Positions 22,300-63,900 of a DNA stretch of 64,000 bases are shown in pieces. The notes under the pieces were generated by a model, which saw only the letters and a list, made by a program, of their open reading frames with translations, was not told where the DNA came from and ran no database searches. The first letter of the stretch is position 1; each line of letters begins with the position of its first letter. The stretch comes from Gracilinanus agilis (Eukaryota): positions 551,721,117 through 551,785,116 of the forward strand of contig NC_058131.1 in NCBI RefSeq assembly GCF_016433145.1, in the 5' to 3' direction. The position numbers and the translations under genes were made by a program.

Positions 22300-22866
22300 T
22301 TCAGATTTGATTGTATTTCTTTTCAGCATAACCTGAATCCTTGGTTAAGGGTTTCTAAATAGCAGGTATGGGTGATCCAGCTTCCCAGCCATGAAAGGCT
22401 AAGTTCAATAAGTGCAATAAGTTTTTCTCCCAATTTCCACAATTGAATAAAATTTTTGGCAAGACAGAATTTGGACTAGGCCCATAATTGAACAGAAAAG
22501 GGAACTGAGCTATGTAAGTGGGGGAAATGGGAATTAAATTAAATTAAATTAAATTAAATTAAAATTCAAAGTCTGTGATCTCACCAGAGATGCCTCATCA
22601 CCAAGTTCAAAGCACCAAAAGCTCCCCACAGGAAGTTACCATCATATTTAAAAGACAGCAGCTTCCGTCACTTCCTTCGTCCACCTCCATTTTCACGTGG
22701 ACAAATGGCAGCCTCAACACTGTGTTTTTGACTTGTCACTTACTATCACATGCGGGTCACAGACCTCCCCCTCCCCACTTAATTCTAAATTGGGTGGCTA
22801 TTACTCACATTATTCCTGGTGGCTAAAGTCTAAAGAATGAATGAGGATGAGCTAATTCCATTTACA
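22300..22866 (-). mobile_element. ERV LTR-like fragment
   Basis: Ends in …ccatttaca (TG start on the - strand) and shares cacatg(c/t)gggt(c/t)acagacctccccc with the LTR at 57152-57876. The left boundary is uncertain. Confidence 0.55.
22532..22566. repeat. (AAATT)n pentanucleotide repeat
   Basis: About 7 units. Confidence 0.9.
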
Positions 22867-48900: not shown

Positions 48901-50947
48901 ATAATTCTCATCCCTCATTTCAATTTTATTAACTCCAACATTCCCTATTAACATCTTAATTTTTAATTTCATCCATTTGGTCCCATCTATTTGTCCCTCT
49001 GGATCTTCCTCAAATATGATACCACCAAATTTGAACTGATAGTAGTATTCCAGCCTTAAACTTACTGAGACATTACTCGAGACCGCTCCCCAGGAGAAAA
49101 ACTGCCATGATGGCAGAGCCCCCGTTCTCTCTGTAGGGAAAAGACATATCAAACTTTTACTGCCAGCTTCAAACTTTTTTTTTTTTAAAGCATTCTCCTC
49201 ATACAAGGTTTGGTTGGCAAACTCCTGACTGCCCTTATATATCTACCCAAATAGTTAACACTTACAAAGCTCTTTAAGGTTTTCATTACTTGATCAAGTT
49301 TCACAATTTTGTGAGATACTCACATTTTCCAGATAGGGAAACTGAAGATTACTGAGGTTAAGTAATTTGCCCAGGGTCAAACATTTGTTAACTGAAGATG
49401 GAGACAAGAACCAGGTCTTCCTGACTCCAAATCCAGCTCTCTATCCATGAAGTACAGGTAAGGAAGCTTACCTGGTGCAACATTCTAGGAAAGCTGTACT
49501 CTTGTGTTAGCTTATTTGATCCCAGCTGTCCTGTGGCCAGTTTTACTTGGGTCTTGATCTCATTGCATTCCAGCTCTCGGGTGTCGGGGTTTGAGTCCAC
49601 TGTAAGAAGACCAAGCCCTTGCCTCAGTCTTTTAAGTCACAGAGGACAGAAGAGGATAAATTGGCAAGAAGGGGACAAGGATGGCAAGGCCCGACCATGA
49701 AGGGAGGGAATGAGGTTCAAAGGATTCTCTTCATCCCCATAACTGATCTTCCTCCCTTCTTCTTTTGACTCCAACCTTTTGTACCTAAATTTTGTTTTGC
49801 AGACTGCTGATCTACAATTCTAGGAGCTAAGTACCCTTTCTTCTTACCAGGTGGATTGTATCTGTCACCGAGACGACCCTCCCAAGTGCTGTCATTGTCA
49901 TCATCTGAGTCAGAGAGTGTATGGATGAGCTGCAGGCTGGTGGCACCAACTTCCTGTACCAGTCTCACCTGGCCCCTGTGGAGAGACCTCATGGCAGGGG
50001 ATGATCCCTCAATACTAACCAACTCAAACTCAGAATCTCACATTCCCATCTCTATTATTAGGGACCCCAAGATAACTATTTGGGCGCTATCAGGTTGTAG
50101 AAGTCTATTCTTGGAAGCAGGGCTAGGAGTAAAATCTTAGGGACTGTATTTGAGGAGATTTCTGGAAATGTTAAGCTGAGATTCTAGAGCCAAAAGTTAT
50201 GGAGTTTTGACTTTACCAGAAGAATTCTACATTGTACAAAGAATTCTGAAGGGATCTTCTGGATCTCATCTTCCTAAATTCCATAATCTCAGGCCATCTT
50301 TAGGCAATAGTCTTTCCCCCAAGATATAAAACTAGGCACAGTCCTTCTCCACTGTTTCTTCATAAGGATCACTTACTTTACCAATTCTTCCCTTTAGTTT
50401 AGTGTTGGAGCTAGGTCAGTTTAAACTTGTTTCTTTTTTTAAGTCCGTATAGGGTCCCTATCACATACTTAGGTCCACTACATCTTTCACCCAGCTTTCA
50501 CTCCCTCTTTCCTCTGTTTACTTACTTGGGAACTCAGGCACATTTATGCAACCAAAGTGAACGCTACTAAAAAAAGAGTTCCCTCACCTACTTGAGCAAG
50601 GCATGGCTAGTAGTAAGCCCATCATTGTGCCACCTCTCCCCAAGCTTAATACTGCTGGTCTCATTAGGAAGAGACTGGAGACCAACAAATTTGGGGAGCC
50701 TCAAGCAAGGAAAATTTTCTTTCCTCTCTCAGAGGCCTAGTGCTGAGGTGCTGCTCCCTGTTCCCTATCTTGGGTAGTTTAGCTTCCCTGTCCTGAATGG
50801 GGAGTGAAAGGGGGTTTTATACTAGAGAGTGAGTTACCTGGGGAGGAAATAGGCCAGATCCACATCGTCATCTTCTTCTCTGTACCAAGGCTCATATCTC
50901 CCATACGGGGAGGCCTCTGAGGCACTGCTGTTGCCTGGAGAGTCCAT
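42997..50947 (-). CDS. DCAF11: DDB1- and CUL4-associated factor 11 (WDR23), 531 aa
   Basis: 14 coding exons: 50838-50947, 49848-49975, 49472-49599, 49066-49130, 48409-48509, 48010-48156, 47259-47313, 46830-46898, 46413-46470, 46128-46313, 45459-45612, 44349-44501, 43251-43357, 42997-43131. Total 1596 nt; WDxR motifs VWDRR and LWDIR; ends YSSPQ*. The start ATG (CAGAAGATGG) is inferred from similarity. Confidence 0.95.
44560..45430 (+). mobile_element. L1 3' fragment in a DCAF11 intron, hosting a young SINE at 44794-44972
   Basis: SINE TSD aaaaaaatgtggt at 44781-44793 and 44973-44985; A-tail near 45420-45438. Confidence 0.85.
47621..47799 (-). mobile_element. Older SINE1_Mdo-like
   Basis: …ctcaatccactgagccacctagctgtccc. 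Confidence 0.8.
48658..48845 (-). mobile_element. SINE1_Mdo-like
   Basis: poly-T + aaacccttaac… to …ctacccagctgccccc. Confidence 0.85.
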
Positions 50948-51399
50948 CTTCTGGTCACAGCATCCTCCACATGCGTGCTGGAGCCTGTCCTCTTCTTGGG
51001 TCTGATGGGGTGCTACCCTGGAGACTCCTGAATGCTGTGTATATGGGAGGAGGAGAGGCAACTGCTCCTCTTCAGGGTTAGGGGTCCTTTCTCCTTGGCC
51101 AGTGACAGCTCCCAGGACTCCAGGAACCGGGACGGACCTGCAGCCTGGAAAGCCCAAAAAAGCCGGGGGGAGGGTCGAGGATCACTCCCGTACCGCCAAG
51201 TGACACCCTCACCCACCAATCACAGCCCTTGGTGGGGAGATTCCTTAGGTTCACCTCCGAGCTCACCTAGCAAAGCCCCAGGGGGAGGGGAAGGGAGAAG
51301 GGGGAGATCCCCAGGAGACCACCAATCAGAACTCTCCTGGAGGAAGAATCTTATCCACCAATCAGAGAGCTCTATTGCTACAGCCGGCAGAGGCGAAAG

Positions 51400-52520
51400 C
51401 CAATGAAGTTAGAATCCGGCTTAACAGCCCTCCCCCCACAACTCCCCCCGACTCCCGGCCACGTGGTATGTCCGGGGTGTGTACAAGGAGTTGGGGGGGG
51501 GATCAGGGTTCCTCCCGCCCAAGGGAGCGGTTAATGGTTAGCCCGCAACCCCCCACCCCGACAAGGGTAGCACAAAAGCCCCAGCGGCATAGAGGGCGGC
51601 GCGCGAGGCCTGGTTATATATATCCACGGCGTTTCCCCCAACGGCTCTACCAGCTTCGCGCGGCTCCGTCACGCACCTCTCTGATTCCCGGGCTCGCCTC
51701 CCGCTTGCGTCACGCGATCGGCCATATCTGTCCCCGCCCACCTTTAGTCCGATCACTGGATGGCGGGTTCGAGTGATTGACAAGTGGGCGGAACTAAGTG
51801 GGTTTGTTATGGAGGGGAGGAGGCGGGGAAAGCAGTTGTTGGAGGAGGAGCGCGTGTGCGTGTGTGTTCGAAGCGCTAGTGGAAGGGCGGGGGCGGGGAG
51901 GGGGAAACAGGAGGGCAGTGTAGGGGAGCGGAGCGTAATGTTGTTGACGCTTGTTTCCGAGGGTAGGAATAGATGGGGAACCCACAGGGTGGGCGCGGCC
52001 GCGAATTCTTCCGGGGTTGTGCTTCTTAGGGAAGAAAGGGAGAGGCAGGATATGCTAATTACTAGCCTTGGATTGGCTAGTTAGGCGCCTCGGGGTTGGC
52101 CTTCACCTAGGCTCTATCTACGGCACTATTTGAAGTCAGTCCCTAAAGTGGCAAGTTCTTCGGGATCCACACTTTTCAGATGATCCCAAAGCCTCCGTTT
52201 GCGCACCTTATCCTCCCTGGTCTCCGCCAAGGCCCCCAGAGCTTTTGTGGCTATTGTACCCTGCTACTAGCGCTCCTGAGGAGACTACCCAGTGTCATCG
52301 TGTGTATCAGGGGAACCTGGAGCCCCAAAAGACTGCTTCCAAAGCTGGAGCCCGGCCAAAATCTCAAACCCGCTCGTGGTTGGGAGTACACCGCCCTGCC
52401 TGGACTTGTTCCTCCAGACCCCCTTATGACCGACTACCCCTCACCTAACCCCCAGGAGAGGCGCCCCTAAATCTGCCTCTTCGGGTCTAAACATGGCCGC
52501 TTCGCTCCTTGCCCCCCCCC
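51400..52520. promoter_or_regulatory. DCAF11 CpG-island promoter
   Basis: Dense CpG; CGTCACGC twice, GC boxes, ETS-like GCGGAAC, YY1-like GATGGCGG (51759) and AAACATGGCCGC (52489-52500). Confidence 0.7.
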
Positions 52521-56840: not shown

Positions 56841-57151
56841 GTCTAGGCAATCAGGGTTAAATGACTTGCCCAGGGTCACACAGCTAAGAGGGGTCTGAGA
56901 TCAAATTTGAACCCAGGTCCTTTCAACTCCAGGCCTGTTGTTCTATTCATTCTACCTACCTGCCCCAATCAAAGTATATTTTGATTTAATTTGGTGGTTA
57001 TTTTGGTAGTGTTGTATGATTGCAAGTGATGACTACCACAATCTCTGAAGAAGTAAAGTTGAGAATCACTCAAAGGACAATGGAGAAGCCAGTGGAATGG
57101 ATTTGAGCAGGCTACAGTATATTATATAAATGAAGAATTGTACAGGAGAAG

Positions 57152-57876
57152 TATAAGGGTTAAAAATTATTCTGGTTGGACTGAATATTTAATAGGGTGG
57201 TCGCCAGGAATTTAATTAATTCCAAATGATTTTTTAGCAATTTATTTATAAAATAGAGGGAAAGAGTGAAAGTAAGAATTTCAGAGAGAGGATAGAGTAA
57301 GGGATCTGGCTTAACAAGCTAGACTATGTGCTCAAGCCCTGGCTTACTCCGGCAGGGCTCCAGTAGCCCTAGCCCAAGGGCCTAAGGGTCAGTTAACAAG
57401 AGTTTTAGCCATGAGGCCTCCTCCAGACCTTCCAGAGGCTAGTACCTTCCAGAGGCTAGTACCTCCAGGGGCCCTTCCAGAGGCTAGTACCTCCAGGAAA
57501 AAGCCAAGGAAGGGAGTCAGCCCTTTCACTCACCCATAAGTTCTAAGGAGAAATATAAAGCAGTCCAAGGTCCTCAGCCAGAACTCTTTCAAGGTCCAGT
57601 TCAAGGCGAAAGAGTGAGTACCAGGAAGTTCTTGCAATTTATAAAGACCATTCCTTTTGTCACTTCCTGTGCCTTTCTCCCATTTTATGTGTACCAATCA
57701 CAACAAAAGCTTTGCTTAGGACTGCCCAGGGGGCAATCAGTAGATTCTGATTCGTCACCCACTTTTGCACATGTGGGTTACAGACCTCCCCCACTCAAGT
57801 ATACACTTGATGGGTGTGTATACTTTTGGTGATTAAATCTAAAATGGGCAGGGTAGAGTTAATCCCATCTTCACAA
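57152..57876 (-). mobile_element. ERV 3' LTR (about 725 bp), with internal remnant extending to about 58510
   Basis: On the - strand: PPT aaagggggat then TGTGAAG…; TATAAA at 57638-57645; AATAAA at 57241-57246; end …aacccttata; internal 17-bp tandem ccttccagaggctagta x3 at about 57428-57490. Confidence 0.8.
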
Positions 57877-58149
57877 TCCCCCCTTTAATTGGACCTTGAT
57901 TCAAGGACTTGTTGTAATTTTATTTTTCCTTTACTTAGAATTTTTTGGACATAAGACTTTGATATTTTATATTTCATTCACAAGTTATTTTTCTCTTTTA
58001 TTTGGATTTTTTGATGTTTTTGACTTTCTTTTGCCAATTGATTCATATACCATAAAATTCAGCCATGCATCCCTGAAGGATCCCTTTGTCACCATCCTCC
58101 TCAGGGGGGAATGTATTATTATCCTATAATGCAAAGTTCAAATTCTTTT

Positions 58150-58339
58150 TTTTTTTTTTTTTAAATCCTTGTACTTCGGTGTATTGTCTCATAGGTGGAA
58201 GATTGGTAAGGGTGGGCAATGGGGGTCAAGTGACTTGCCCAGGGTCACACAGCTGGGAAGTGGCTGAGGCTGGGTTTGAACCTAGGACCTCCCATCTCTA
58301 GGCCTGACTCTCACTCCACTGAGCTACCCAGCTGCCCCC
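58150..58339 (-). mobile_element. Very young full-length SINE
   Basis: TSD ttcaaattctttt at 58137-58149 and 58340-58352. Confidence 0.92.
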
Positions 58340-58519
58340 TTCAAATTCTTTTGAGAGTAATTTTAGGATAAGAAATTTGCTACCTCCCCAAATCCAGAAA
58401 GTGAACTGTTTGGAGAAGTCACCTTGAAGATGCCTGTAGAGACTACATGCTGCACCAGAAGATCCAGAGTGAACTTTGGGATGTGATGAATTGAACTGTG
58501 GGGGGTGTTGAATGCATTT

Positions 58520-58716
58520 TTTTTAAACCCTTACCTTCTGTCTTGGAACCAATACATGTATTGGTTCCAAGGCAGAAGAGTGGTAAGAGCTAGGCAATGG
58601 AGGTCAAGTGACTTGCCTAGGGTCACACAGCTAGGAAGTATCTGAGGCTAGATTTGAACCTAGGACCTCCTGTCTTTAGGCCTGGCTCTCAATCCACTGA
58701 GCTACCCAGCTGCCCC
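58520..58716 (-). mobile_element. Full-length SINE1_Mdo-like
   Basis: TSD ttgaatg(c/t)attt. Confidence 0.88.
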
Positions 58717-59179
58717 TTGAATGTATTTGTTTTAAATGTACACTTTTATGCTGAAGGGGACTGCCCCCTAACTGGCTTTTTGTCAATGTGCTTTGCAATC
58801 GTTGGTTTTGTTCTCTTTTCCTTTTATCCCCAAATTACTGTAATTTAAAAGTTGGTTCTATTTACAAGATTCATTGGAGACCAGTCTTCCACGGATCTCA
58901 GAGGAGAATGTGTTATTGGAAATTTTGTACTTTTAAAAACTACATTGTCCAGGAGCCCACTGACTTCCTGTCGTTACATACTGACTTAGGGAATAAATTC
59001 GGTGGATTTCTGGGGCTAGCTTTCTTCTCTGGGAATGAGGGCAGCTATGAACTTGGGACTTTTGAACAGGTAGATTAGCTTGGGCATGTGGTTTTATTTT
59101 GTTACTTATTTATTCCTTTACTTCTAATGATTATTAATAAATTTTATAAAAACATAATAAAGTTATTATTATATATTCA

Positions 59180-59800
59180 TTTTAATTTTTACAGAAGGCA
59201 GTGTAAAGGATGTCATCAGAAAAGTGTAGAAATGTATGGTCAAAAAAATGTTGAGTTTGTCATTTAGTGACGGCAAAATGAAGGCACTGGAATATATGGC
59301 CTCTTGAGGTCCCTTTCAGCTATGGTTCTCTGACCATGAGGAATAACCAATGATCAGCTAGGACGTTCCACTGGATTTCTTACAATGTCAAAAGAAGAAA
59401 AATGAAGGTTCTCAGTATACTTGGTGAACCTCCTATGTCAGAATTATAGGACACAAATCCAAGGCACATTGGATCACAGGAATGTATGGCTTTCATGTGT
59501 CACACTGGACATTGATGAGATCAGAGATCTACTAGATTCCTGGAGTGGGATTATGCTCATATCTTTCTATCTATACTGTTTTATTGAGTTGATTTCAGCA
59601 CGTTGGCCCATTATGACCCATAAATCTGTTTTATTTGTATAGCCAGTCTTCAAGACTAATCATTCCATGAGTCCTTCTCCTGAAGAGTTTTGGACTCCAT
59701 TTAATAATTAGATCTTGACATTATTTTCTTGGTACAAACCACCAATGACACTCACTTCAGCATCATCTATAAATTTGCTGAACCTATTTGCAAGAAGTTA
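59180..59800. mobile_element. Ancient CR1/L3 fragments
   Basis: Degenerate L3-like 3' end and RT remnants (catcatctataaatttgctga). Confidence 0.5.
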
Positions 59801-60928
59801 ATGAATGGAGGTATTAGAGATGTTTATGTAACAGACAAGAGACTTGAGATATGAACAGGAAGAGATCATAGAATCATACATTTAGAGCTTGAGGAGAGCT
59901 AGTTGGTTAACTTGTCCAGCCCTCTTTTTTCATTGTCAAGGAGAGGGAGGTTGTCATACATGTGCTAAGGATTGGAGTCATGAATTAGAACCTAGTTCTT
60001 ATGCCTCCAAATGTTGCATTCTTTCCCCTGGAACATACTGCCTCTGAGTCTTCTCCATAGGAAGTGGAAGAGGACTTGTTTAAAGATCATTGCAAGAGGA
60101 ATCAGGATTTTGTTGAGTTCTGGACACTTCTATCTTAAGATAGAAAAGAATGGGAGGTTGGAAGGTTGGAGGAAAAGGTGGAGTACTGAGGAAGAGTGTC
60201 AGAGGAAGAAGTCTTAAGGGTTTATATGGCTCAGTCTTAGAAGTCAAGGGTTTAGTTTTGGGGGCTGACTGTGGGTTCTACAACTTAGGATCATAGATTT
60301 AGATTTGGAAGGGACCTTAAGAAGTCATAAAAATCCAAGCCTTTATTTTACTGATGAGGACTTACATGATTTAAGGTCACACAGCAAATGGTAGAGCAGG
60401 GATTCAAACCTGAGTCCCCTCCAAATCTAAATCTAGCTATTTCTGAATGTATGACTTTTGTGTTGGAAGGAGGAAGGTTGGACAGTGCTCTCTTCCCTCC
60501 TTCCCACTTATGCTCCCCAAGAGCAGTGTGGAATACTAGATATCTCATTCATGCAACCAGGTAGGAGCTTTCTACAGGCTGGATCGACTCCATTCTACAG
60601 AGACTTCAATAGGGATAAATTGAGAGGTTGGGGGAAGAGGATCATAAAACTGATGAAGGAATGCTGGAGATAGTAATACCTTTTTGCATTGAAAGTTAAT
60701 GAAAGCTATACAAATGTGATGGAAAATAAATGATAACTTATTATTAAATCAACAGCTTAGATGGTATATAATAGGGCTACAGTCTGGTTTGTGACTGTAT
60801 AATAGGTGTTAGTCAAATCAAAGTAGCTCTTATTTCTTGTAACTCTTTCTCTGTAGTTCCCCTGTTGAAAGGAGGTAGCTCATATGCTCTTTTTTCGTGT
60901 ATGTACCTCTGCCCCCTGTGTTCCCAGA

Positions 60929-63900
60929 TTACATTTGTCGTACTCTCTTCTCCATTGACTCCAATTCAGCCAGTACTTCCCGGGGCAGGTCTTGGTTGAC
61001 CTGCTCCCTCAGGTAGCTTCTTACTTCACGGACTTCCTGCTCCCAGAACTCTTTAGGCAATGAAAACAACTCAGCCAAGTCCACAGACCCCAAGCCACTC
61101 AGATTCAATGCCCCTTCCTTTGGCACTAGCCCCACGGGTGTCTTTTGGGCACTCTCCTCACCCTCCAGCCTTCGGCAGATCCAGTCCAGTACACGAGAAT
61201 TCTCCCCAAAGCCTGGCCATAGGAATCGGCCTGCTGCATCCCGCCGGAACCAGTTGACATGGAAGATCCGGGGAAGCTGGACCCCCTGCCGCCCCTCCAT
61301 ACTCAGCCAGTGTTCCAAGTAACGCCCAAAATTGTAGCCAAAGAAGGGCCGCATTGCAAATGGATCATGCATGATAGTTTTCCCTGGGAGAGTGGAACAG
61401 GGTGACAGGTTATCTTGCTTGTTGGAAGGGGAAGGGATACCTCTGAACCAGGACCGGAGGAGCTATGTAACAGATACACCCAGTACATGACGAAGGAGCA
61501 GGATGGTGACAACTGTCCAATGAGGTCCTTGGGGCTGATACGAAGAAGGCAGGTAGGGTCAGGGACAAACTGAGGCTTGAGGAGGCCAAAGCAACGGTCA
61601 GGAACTGGGGTCTGCCTAAAGGACAAGGCCAGCAAAGGGGATGGACGCTGGGACTCACCTTTGTGTTCAGCTGCAGCAGTGGACTCAGAGCGCATGATGC
61701 TGCCCACAAAGACACCATGGCGCCAGTTAAAAGCCTCATAGACTAGGGGTACTCCTGGGAAGCCAAGTAAGAGGATTTCAGACAACTCTTTTCCCAGACC
61801 TCACCTGATTCCCTCTGCCCTTTCTGCCCTTTATGTTGGCTTCAATGGCCTTTGGATTAGCTTGGACCTGCTGTCTTCTCAGTCTCTAGTCTGATATCCC
61901 AGAGGAAGGGGAAATGGGAACTTTGATGAAGGGCTCCTTCAAATAAGAGTGGACTGAAGGATCTCAACCTCTGTGCACAGGTAGGGGAAAGGTTCCTAAT
62001 ATAGAGCCAGACCACTGACTCAGAGGGCAGATTCTCGATCCACCAGGCCTGCAGAGACTGTACCTTTGGGCCGTCGTCCTCCAAAGATGATGGCATCGAT
62101 GGGCACACCCTCAGAGGCCTCCCACGCAGGGTCCATGATGGGGCACTGGCGGGCCGGGGCACAGAACCTTGAATTGGGATGTGCACAGGGCTCCTTGTTG
62201 CCTGCCGCAGATAAGACACTTTTACTTTGAACATACTTTTACTTTACATAACCTGCTATTTGTCCATAATACTTTGGTAGACTTCCTGCAAATCAGAACA
62301 GGGTAAATGGGCTCCTTCCCCAGCTCTAGACTCAAGTCTCACTCCCCAAGAAGGGAATGTTCTTTCTCCTTTGGTGCTGGGGCTTACTGTTTATATGGGA
62401 AAGAGATGTGAGAGTACTTGGTATCCTCAAGGAGCTGGGGACTGTGATGCGACAGCTCTTTCTAGTAAATGATGAAGGTTCCAAGGAGTAGAAATTTGTC
62501 CCTAATGTGATATTAGAAGATTTTTTTACCTGCCCTGCTCAGACCCTGACTGGAGTAGGAAGGCCAGTGTTTAGCTTAGCTGGTTGAACCGATTGACAAT
62601 ATGTAGCCAATACAGTAACTTAGGGATACCTCAGAAAAGGCGCACACCAAAGGTGGGGAGATGTTCCAATGGGAAACCTCGTCAATCTTTTTTTTTTTCT
62701 TTTAAACCCTTACCTTCCATCTTGGAGTCAATACTGTGTATTGGCTCCAAGGCAGAAGAGTGGTAAGGGTAGGCAATGGGGGTCAAGTGACTTACCCAGG
62801 GTCACACAGCTAGGAAGTGTCTGAGGCCAGATTTGAACCCAGGTCCTCCCGTCTTTAGGCCTGGCTCTCAATCCACTGAGCTACCCAGCTGCCCCCACCT
62901 CGTCAGTCTTTAATGAGTGTAGAATCATTGTTTTTTCTAACCTGGGAATCATGGGCCAGATTCTGAGGAGTGAGGCACCTGGCCAACTTATCTCCTCTGA
63001 TTCTGACTGCTTACTGGGAGCAGAGCCACCAACAGCTTTTCCTCTCCCATCTACTCCTCCCTCCGGACCTTGCTATAGGGCATTTATTTGGGAACTGGCA
63101 CTAGACAGTTATACCACTGGATCCAAATATGATGAAAGGTTTGGGAAACTGACCTATAGGGAAAGACTTAATTTTCTGGGCTTCTTCCACTGGGTGGAGG
63201 GTGTGGTTTGGAGTTTAATAATGGTCTTTGAGAAGATGAAGAGTGATTACACAGAGGAGGATAACTGTGATAATAGACCCTGAAAGTATGAATACAGGTT
63301 GTAGGAACCACAAAAGGAGGCCATCCTTCCATTATTTCCTCCCTGCTCTAACCCACACAAGAGTTCTATACTTTTTAACTTCAGAGGGACAGAGAAAACC
63401 AAGGGAGGGGTCAAAAGAAGGACCCAAAGATGATGAAAGGGTTGAAAAACTGGTTTATGGGGAAATACTAAGGGACATGAGATTATTTAGCTGGAGGAAA
63501 AAGGTAAGGGGAGATGAAGAGAAGTGAGCTTAGTAACAGTATTTATATAATGAAGGATGATGCTAGAGTTAGGCTGCAGAAAGGGGAGGCTGAGGACCAA
63601 GAGAAATAAATGTTCCCTTCTCCTACAAGTGGATCTCAAGGTATAAGAAAGAAAAAATTCTTGCTGGGTTGCAAGGACTTTTGGGGACACCTGAATCTAG
63701 GAGTTCTGGTGGAAAAGATTTTTATAATTCTGGGGTATTGGAGGAGGCTGGAATTTCAGCTATGTAGGAGGAGTTGAAGTAAAAGGAACATTTCTACCCC
63801 CATTTCCCCCATTCACTGAGACTGTACCCTAAACCTCTGCCCTTTGACTTGCTATTCTTCACTTACCAGATTTCCAGGCCTTGCCCAACCAGGAAGTGAC

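What the first reader, a model, noticed from the sequence alone, without database searches (positions are those of the whole stretch)
57152..57876. ERV LTR poised as an alternative promoter and first coding exon for an N-terminally extended DCAF11
On the DCAF11 strand the LTR has TATAAA (57645-57638). About 70 nt past the expected TSS comes its first ATG (57537-57535), followed by G and a consensus donor: ATGG|GTGAGT (57534/57533). Splicing to the DCAF11 acceptor at 51144 gives ATG GGC TGC AGG…, in frame through the 66 open codons into MDSPG. The product is a 67-aa extension starting MGCRSV (Gly2/Cys3, possible lipidation), and the splice bypasses the LTR's own AATAAA. The neighbouring acceptor at 51137 would be out of frame. 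This would be a lineage-specific, retrovirus-driven isoform of a CRL4 substrate receptor. All parts are visible in the sequence; their use is unproven.
Basis: partly seen in the sequence, partly recalled or inferred. Interest (0 to 1): 0.7.

Follow-up and report, generated by a model that had tools for sequence, protein, structure and literature searches.

The report
Passenger retroviral LTR upstream of DCAF11
A lineage-specific retroviral remnant in an opossum genome carries a promoter box, start codon and splice signal that would fit in frame onto the DCAF11 gene, but many copies of this repeat carry the same signals, the gene's own annotated first exon already opens the same longer frame, and the remnant is likely read through from upstream rather than acting as a new promoter.

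Summary
The motifs are real: TTTATAAA 57645-38, ATGG|GTGAGT 57537-28, and an in-frame join to acceptor 51144 that would give a 67-aa extension. They do not single out this copy. Of 29 other copies, 21 have TATAAA, 21 the donor and 5 the full in-frame set. The 66-codon leader does not need the LTR. DCAF11's own CpG-island exon (ATG 51725, donor 51677) opens it, matching the NCBI 617-aa Gracilinanus model over the 118 residues compared, and it is also open in wombat. The LTR is not solo. It is the 3' LTR of a 2-kb chimeric insertion (57152-59193, 4-bp TSD) that is absent in a related organism and lies 3 kb downstream of same-strand PCK2. In three runs not on record as RNA, exact contigs cover U3, the insertion's unique junction and sequence past the donor, which fits read-through if the runs are RNA. 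The junction 57534->51144 was not tested directly. Verdict: a passenger or poly(A) LTR with latent splice potential; the LTR-driven isoform is unproven (about 12%).

The parts
57152..57875 (-). LTR of family B (TG...TA), in 3'-LTR position of the insertion
   Evidence: 8281 first-look candidates, 40 scored; best other copies 81-82% identical over full length; 7 of 15 copies with scorable ends have a 4-bp TSD
57638..57645 (-). TATA box (TTTATAAA)
   Evidence: TATAAA intact in 21 of 29 other copies
57528..57537 (-). First ATG after TATA, one G, then consensus splice donor GTGAGT (phase 1); C at -3
   Evidence: donor in 21 of 29 copies; an ATG 4 or 6 nt before the donor position in 22 of 29 (15 phase 0, 7 phase 1)
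57241..57246 (-). LTR poly(A) signal AATAAA
57876..57886 (-). Polypurine-tract-like run directly before the LTR; junction to family-A internal sequence at 57883
   Evidence: the same run precedes copies L005 and L027; family-A copies diverge after 57883; 1 match in the genome at up to 2 mismatches
57883..58908 (-). Family-A internal sequence, split by two later SINE insertions (about 58150-58340 and 58520-58716)
58909..59193 (-). 5' LTR of family A (about 285 bp, starts TG)
   Evidence: occurs twice, 82% alike, at both ends of a 4.1-kb LTR-internal-LTR element in L044
57148..57151 (.). Target-site duplication, left copy (GAAG on +)
59194..59197 (.). Target-site duplication, right copy; flank 59198 onward joins 57151 directly in organism B
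   Evidence: 26 of 30 letters agree, compared by eye
51677..51725 (-). DCAF11 CpG-island first exon, coding part: ATG 51725 (G at -3 and +4), donor after 51677, in frame with the leader
   Evidence: its spliced translation equals the first 118 residues of P0015 = XP_044521156.1
50838..51144 (-). DCAF11 exon 2: acceptor 51144 (alternative 51137), 66-codon open leader, main ATG 50947
   Evidence: single copy in the genome
50955..50972 (-). Short out-of-frame uORF (ATGs at 50972 and 50963, stop 8 nt before the main ATG)
60929..61384 (-). Last coding exon of the GTP-PEPCK gene upstream on the same strand (PCK2 by gene order, recalled)
   Evidence: PF00821 E 5.7e-53; stop codon 1736 nt from the insertion and 3683 nt from the LTR AATAAA

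Best explanation
57152-57875 is the 3' LTR of a lineage-specific, non-coding chimeric ERV insertion (57152-59193) between PCK2 and DCAF11, whose TATA box, ATG and splice donor are shared family features, and it is likely read into from upstream (extended PCK2 3' UTR or the family-A 5' LTR), likely acting as a passenger or distal poly(A) site rather than as a DCAF11 promoter. DCAF11 is likely driven by its CpG island. The 66-codon open leader predates the insertion (inferred from wombat) and, where it is read at all, would be opened by the gene's own exon-1 ATG at 51725. Shown: anatomy, family base rates, empty site, match to the annotated protein. Inferred: read-through, poly(A) use, lack of promoter activity.
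For: Family base rates: TATAAA 21 of 29, donor 21 of 29, full in-frame set 5 of 29; the donor hexamer is no more conserved across copies than 36% of 627 hexamers. A CpG island (obs/exp 0.9 at 51501-52000) has its own in-frame ATG and donor. NCBI's G. agilis model uses that exon and its name carries no isoform suffix. 0 of 15 listed cluster members (of 37) start MGCRSV: 3 are extended, 8 start MDSPG, 4 start otherwise. The wombat leader is open and of the same length, 46 of 66 identical against 499 of 534 in the core, which equals about 15% unselected nucleotide change. 3'-LTR anatomy: PPT-like run, upstream 5' LTR, TSD around the whole block. In X19-X21, contigs with 0 differences cover U3 (57706-57873), bridge the unique junction (57841-57977) and cover 57320-57505 beyond the donor; this means read-through if the runs are RNA. 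In organism B a 2454-nt contig at depth 391 bridges the empty site; if colinear it would reach 61354, inside PCK2's last exon. Human data: U3-positive LTRs are classed as poly(A) or read-through, and promoter LTRs avoid sense genes within about 8 kb upstream (PMC3386233, passages).
Against: X19-X21 are not on record as RNA, come from one study and may be the assembly's own sample; their RNA nature is inferred only from size (83-101 against 3224 million letters). X6 is RNA by guess only, and only 30 letters of its loose end were shown. Contigs give no strand, start or end. Tissues are unknown, whereas LTR first exons are typically oocyte- or zygote-specific (PMC5538554). 265 loose ends and 776 contig pieces were not shown. 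Four AATAAA/ATTAAA hexamers lie between the PCK2 stop and the insertion, so much PCK2 RNA may end earlier. 45 promoter-active 3' LTRs were found in the human study. 22 of 37 cluster members were not visible.
Confidence: 0.66

Rival explanations
1. One reading: in oocyte, early embryo or testis the LTR initiates near 57610, splices 57534->51144 and yields DCAF11 with a 67-aa extension, like rodent MT LTR first exons.
For: All motifs are intact and in frame. A crude donor score of 4.2 lies between those of the CpG-island donors at 51677 (3.95) and 51267 (4.9) (approximate matrix from memory). The family has an MT-like TATA-ATG-donor layout (PMC5538554). The insertion is lineage-specific. The distance is plausible (6389-nt intron).
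Against: 5 of 29 copies share the same set, so it is not a sign of selection here. 3'-LTR position and a sense gene 3 kb upstream. The intron would cross 8 AATAAA, 5 acceptor-like sites and the CpG promoter. C at -3. No such model among 15 of 37 listed proteins.
Confidence: 0.12
2. The donor is used only by read-through RNA from PCK2 or the family-A LTR, giving rare PCK2/ERV-DCAF11 chimeric transcripts with upstream stops that would make no extended protein.
For: Exact contigs are continuous from upstream into the LTR; intact donor and acceptor; four ATGs lie in U3 upstream of the TATA box.
Against: No joint or loose end at 57534 among the rows shown, although many rows were not shown.
Confidence: 0.1
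3. The LTR is silent: methylated and not part of any stable RNA; the contigs seen are DNA or nascent background.
For: CpG depleted (2 CpG per 500 nt); 44% of assayable human LTRs were silent (PMC3386233); run types are not on record.
Against: Contig sets of 83-101 million letters hold 57-76% of this copy's words, and exact contigs reach depths of 7-128; this is unlikely for thin DNA of a 3.7-Gb genome (inference).
Confidence: 0.12

Closest known systems
Rodent MaLR/MT and MT2 LTR 'plug-and-play' first exons (e.g. MTC-driven Dicer1O; PMC5538554, passages)
   Same: An LTR carrying promoter, TSS, poly(A) site, an internal splice donor and an AUG, upstream of a host gene in sense orientation.
   Different: Marsupial family with 4-bp TSDs (ERV1-like by recalled rule, not ERVL); this copy is a 3' LTR, not solo; no transcript shown; the host frame is already reachable from the native first exon.
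LTR-donated poly(A) sites of host genes (PMC2553571, passages; poly(A) and read-through LTR classes in PMC3386233)
   Same: Sense LTR downstream of a host gene's last exon with an intact AATAAA; sequence upstream of and within U3 is contiguous in contigs.
   Different: Cleavage at the LTR site is not shown; the element is a chimera of two LTR families.
DCAF11/WDR23 N-terminal isoforms (PMC13373504, passages; PMC5428976 and PMC6692315, search listing only)
   Same: Differences near the N-terminus of this CRL4 receptor change its nuclear/cytoplasmic ratio and degrader activity.
   Different: The human isoforms differ by residues 45-70; no LTR origin was found in print.
NCBI-annotated extended marsupial DCAF11 models XP_044521156.1 (617 aa) and XP_027698971.1 (626 aa)
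   Same: The same 66-codon leader in front of MDSPG.
   Different: They start from the CpG-island exon (Gracilinanus) or, by sequence resemblance, from the region just before the acceptor (wombat), not from an LTR; both are computed models.

Membership tests
ERV LTR | TG...CA termini | tested here: met
   TG at 57875; this copy ends TA, while many copies end CA
ERV LTR | Short target-site duplication | tested here: met
   4 bp in 7 of 15 scorable copies; here around the whole insertion and confirmed by the empty site
ERV LTR | TATA box and poly(A) signal in order; PPT before a 3' LTR | tested here: met
ERV LTR | Association with gag/pol/env or a PBS | tested here: inconclusive
   No ORF of 170 aa or more except one LINE-like frame (label recalled) in 6 fetched loci; no coding provirus was sought further
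Solo LTR | TSD directly flanking the single LTR, no internal sequence | tested here: not met
   Flanks differ; PPT-like run and internal sequence upstream
LTR-initiated first coding exon (MT-type) | Intact promoter motif, AUG and donor inside the LTR, in frame with a host exon | tested here: met
LTR-initiated first coding exon (MT-type) | Capped transcription start in the LTR, U3 not transcribed | tested here: inconclusive
   Contigs cannot show starts; exact contigs cover U3 in 3 of 3 own-organism runs not on record as RNA
LTR-initiated first coding exon (MT-type) | Splice junction from LTR donor to host acceptor | tested here: inconclusive
   Only the donor side was laid; no joint or loose end at 57534 among the shown rows, 265 loose ends not shown
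LTR-initiated first coding exon (MT-type) | Protein product detected | not testable with these tools
   No proteomics or ribosome profiling; 0 of 15 listed models (of 37) start with the LTR peptide
LTR-donated poly(A) site | Sense orientation downstream of a host last exon, intact signal | tested here: met
LTR-donated poly(A) site | Mapped 3' ends at the LTR R/U5 border | not testable with these tools
   Only contigs were available
N-myristoylated protein (PROSITE PS00008, recalled) | Gly2, small residue at position 6, no Pro at position 7 | tested here: not met
   The peptide has Val6 and Pro7; pattern from memory

The most novel reading that the evidence does not exclude
A high-copy opossum LTR family with a built-in TATA-ATG-splice-donor module acts as the marsupial counterpart of rodent MT LTRs, and this recently inserted copy drives a germline or embryo isoform of DCAF11 with a new N-terminus that changes its localisation or substrates.
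Probability: 0.1. Interest if true: 0.6.

Novelty: new member of a known kind. Interest (0 to 1): 0.23.

Why it matters
If the LTR is only a passenger or poly(A) donor, this is one more lineage-specific ERV insertion remodelling a 3' UTR: ordinary. If it were used as a first exon, it would be an LTR-driven protein isoform in a marsupial, for which the searches made here showed no clear precedent (listings only), in a CRL4 receptor whose N-terminal variants differ in localisation and degrader response (PMC13373504). The family-wide ATG-donor module (22 of 29 copies with an ATG just before the donor position) gives a testable lead for LTR-initiated transcripts in opossum oocytes and embryos, where transposable element families are expressed at genome activation (PMC12221971).

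Tried and rejected
Run search: no RNA holder listed on record; 18 of 22 rows were small-share 'RNA?' guesses, of which one (X6) was laid; the other 17 are no evidence. In one search the flank 56950-57149 had no depth in X19 and X21 and depth 3-4 in two bins of X20; this would fit an RNA end in the LTR, but lack of cover proves nothing and is not counted. Protein searches with exon 2 and P0015 residues 1-125 returned only the marsupial DCAF11 cluster; the 50%-representative search returned 0; the exon-2 peptide has no Pfam family. No DCAF11 retrocopy exists to reveal germline first exons (1 match). A second cluster look-up showed the same 15 of 37 members, so Monodelphis isoforms X1/X2 were not seen. 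Rejected: solo LTR (no own TSD); family-A sequence as the normal internal part of family B (0 of 11 family-A loci have LTR B beside them); protein-level selection on the leader (70% against 93% identity; an unselected leader stays open in 32% of simulations at that divergence, indels not modelled). Literature: DCAF11+LTR+alternative promoter 0 papers; DCAF11+myristoyl 4 listings, none on topic by title. No supplements were read. Earlier scan findings: none.

Full report
Observation. Joining ATGG to 51144 reads without a stop into the main ATG at 50947, 67 residues in front of MDSPG. The LTR starts TG at 57875 and ends TA at 57152.

Locus. G000 has 3.70 Gb. The gene on the minus strand is DCAF11 (WD40; cluster of marsupial DCAF11 proteins). 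Upstream on the same strand lies a GTP-PEPCK gene (PF00821; PCK2 by recalled gene order) with its stop codon at 60929. The window's exon translation equals the first 118 residues of the Gracilinanus agilis record XP_044521156.1, so the window is from that opossum or a very close relative.

The motifs are family traits. The LTR has 8281 first-look candidates in the genome, of which 40 were scored and 29 other copies fetched; the best are 81-82% identical. Pairwise against the window copy, 21 of 29 keep TATAAA and 21 of 29 a consensus donor. In 22 of 29 the first ATG lies 4 or 6 nt before the donor position (15 phase 0, 7 phase 1; 2 others have an earlier ATG with a stop, 5 have none), and 5 of 29 have TATA, donor and phase-1 ATG together. 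These are the best-matching copies, so the rates may be high for the family as a whole. The donor hexamer is matched or exceeded in conservation by 36% of 627 hexamers. Roughly one close copy in six placed here would look equally 'poised'.

The extension does not depend on the LTR. The CpG island at 51500-52500 (obs/exp 0.9 in 51501-52000) holds an ATG at 51725 in strong context and a donor after 51677, in phase with acceptor 51144. This is the start of the 617-aa NCBI model, whose name has no isoform suffix. Two wombat models (626 and 622 aa) carry the same 66-codon leader open, from a different start. Of 15 listed members (37 in the cluster) 3 are extended, 8 start at MDSPG, 4 start otherwise and none starts with the LTR peptide. 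The leader is 46 of 66 identical to wombat against 499 of 534 in the core (ungapped count). Simulated unselected change of 15% gives 71% identity and leaves the frame open in 32% of 5000 runs; 9.6% of 20000 shuffles are open. So the leader behaves like a conserved 5' UTR that happens to be open. A short out-of-frame uORF at 50972-50955 could explain its invariant 3' end (inference). A real native extension is not excluded.

The LTR is the 3' end of a chimeric insertion. It lacks its own TSD and is preceded by a purine run also seen before copies L005 and L027. The 1.3 kb upstream belong to a second family, A (3502 candidates), split by two SINEs. L044 shows family A as LTR-internal-LTR with 290-bp LTRs, and the window's 59193-58909 is such an LTR. 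None of 11 family-A loci has LTR B beside it, and the junction is unique in the genome. GAAG flanks the whole block at 57148-57151 and 59194-59197. In run X6 (organism B) a 2454-nt contig at depth 391 matches 56968-57151 with 15 differences and 3 gaps, then continues with letters matching 59198-59227 at 26 of 30. This is an empty site with one GAAG, so the block is one lineage-specific insertion, less likely an exact deletion in B. How a provirus came to have two unrelated LTRs and one TSD is unexplained.

Transcription. No listed run is on record as RNA. X19-X21 (organism E, one study) hold 57-76% of the LTR's words in contig sets of 83-101 million letters, against 3224 million for X22, so they are probably RNA (inference); they may be the assembly's own sample. 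Contigs with no difference cover U3 (57706-57873, depth 11-23), bridge the unique junction (57841-57977, depth 41-128) and cover 57320-57505 beyond the donor (depth 7-20) in all three, and 57245-57349 in two (depth 28-36). If RNA, this is unspliced sequence entering the LTR from upstream, the U3-positive pattern that PMC3386233 classes as poly(A) or read-through (passages). The X6 contig, if colinear, would reach 61354 in PCK2's last exon, which suggests that the site lay in a long PCK2 3' UTR; its remaining letters were not shown and X6 is RNA by guess. The junction is therefore untested, not refuted.

Mechanism. Most likely (0.66) the LTR is read into from PCK2 or the family-A LTR and may offer its AATAAA as a distal poly(A) site, while DCAF11 starts at its CpG island. 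Human data favour this: promoter LTRs are depleted of sense genes within about 8 kb upstream, and promoter-active 3' LTRs had silent 5' LTRs; against it, 45 such 3' LTRs were found (PMC3386233). LTR-donated poly(A) sites are common and sense-biased (PMC2553571, passages). It needs a 6389-nt intron across 8 AATAAA, 5 acceptor-like sites and the CpG promoter. Even a junction read would not prove it, because read-through RNA could use the same donor (0.10). Silence is the remaining rival (0.12). The proposed lipidation is weak: Val6 and Pro7 fail the recalled PROSITE pattern.

Novelty. No paper held DCAF11, LTR and alternative promoter together. Listings for marsupial LTR chimeric transcripts (20 of 128 shown, 15 of 245 shown) showed none on this locus. 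The held library lacks most subscription papers and no supplements were read. Human DCAF11 isoforms that differ near the N-terminus differ in localisation and degrader response (PMC13373504, passages), so a true LTR isoform would matter. As it stands this is a new member of a known kind, an ERV insertion with latent regulatory motifs. Interest 0.23.

Noticed in passing
window 57152-59193: One insertion with a single 4-bp TSD but two unrelated LTRs (family A at the 5' end, family B with a PPT-like run at the 3' end), joined at a shared AAAG; the junction is unique in the genome. Origin unexplained.
   Followed up: partly
family-B LTR copies L002-L030: An ATG sits 4 or 6 nt before an internal splice donor position in 22 of 29 copies: an MT-like first-exon module in a high-copy marsupial LTR family.
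   Followed up: partly
window 51725-51677 and 51144-50948: The NCBI Gracilinanus model has an 82-aa N-terminal extension (617 against 535 aa) from the CpG-island exon; wombat models have the same leader open from another start. Whether it is translated is unknown.
   Followed up: partly
window 50972-50955: Short out-of-frame uORF ending 8 nt before the main DCAF11 ATG; could regulate translation.
   Followed up: no
window 51620, 51712, 51267, 51213: A TATA-like TATATAA at 51620 and a CRE-like TGACGC at 51712 suggest a start site downstream of ATG 51725; donors at 51267 and 51213 offer non-coding first exons.
   Followed up: no
window 56968-60929 (run X6): A deep contig of organism B bridges the empty site, hinting at a PCK2 3' UTR of 2 kb or more that runs towards the DCAF11 promoter.
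   Followed up: partly
L048 8717-9043 and L049 8638-9015: Two family-B copies share about 300 bp upstream of the PPT-like run, part of which matches family-A internal sequence in inverted orientation.
   Followed up: no
P0002-P0015: Full-length marsupial DCAF11 models start MDSPG, without the Gly2 that human DCAF11 has (human start recalled, from no call).
   Followed up: no
window 22726-22771: A short 79% match to part of the family-B LTR, probably another LTR fragment.
   Followed up: no
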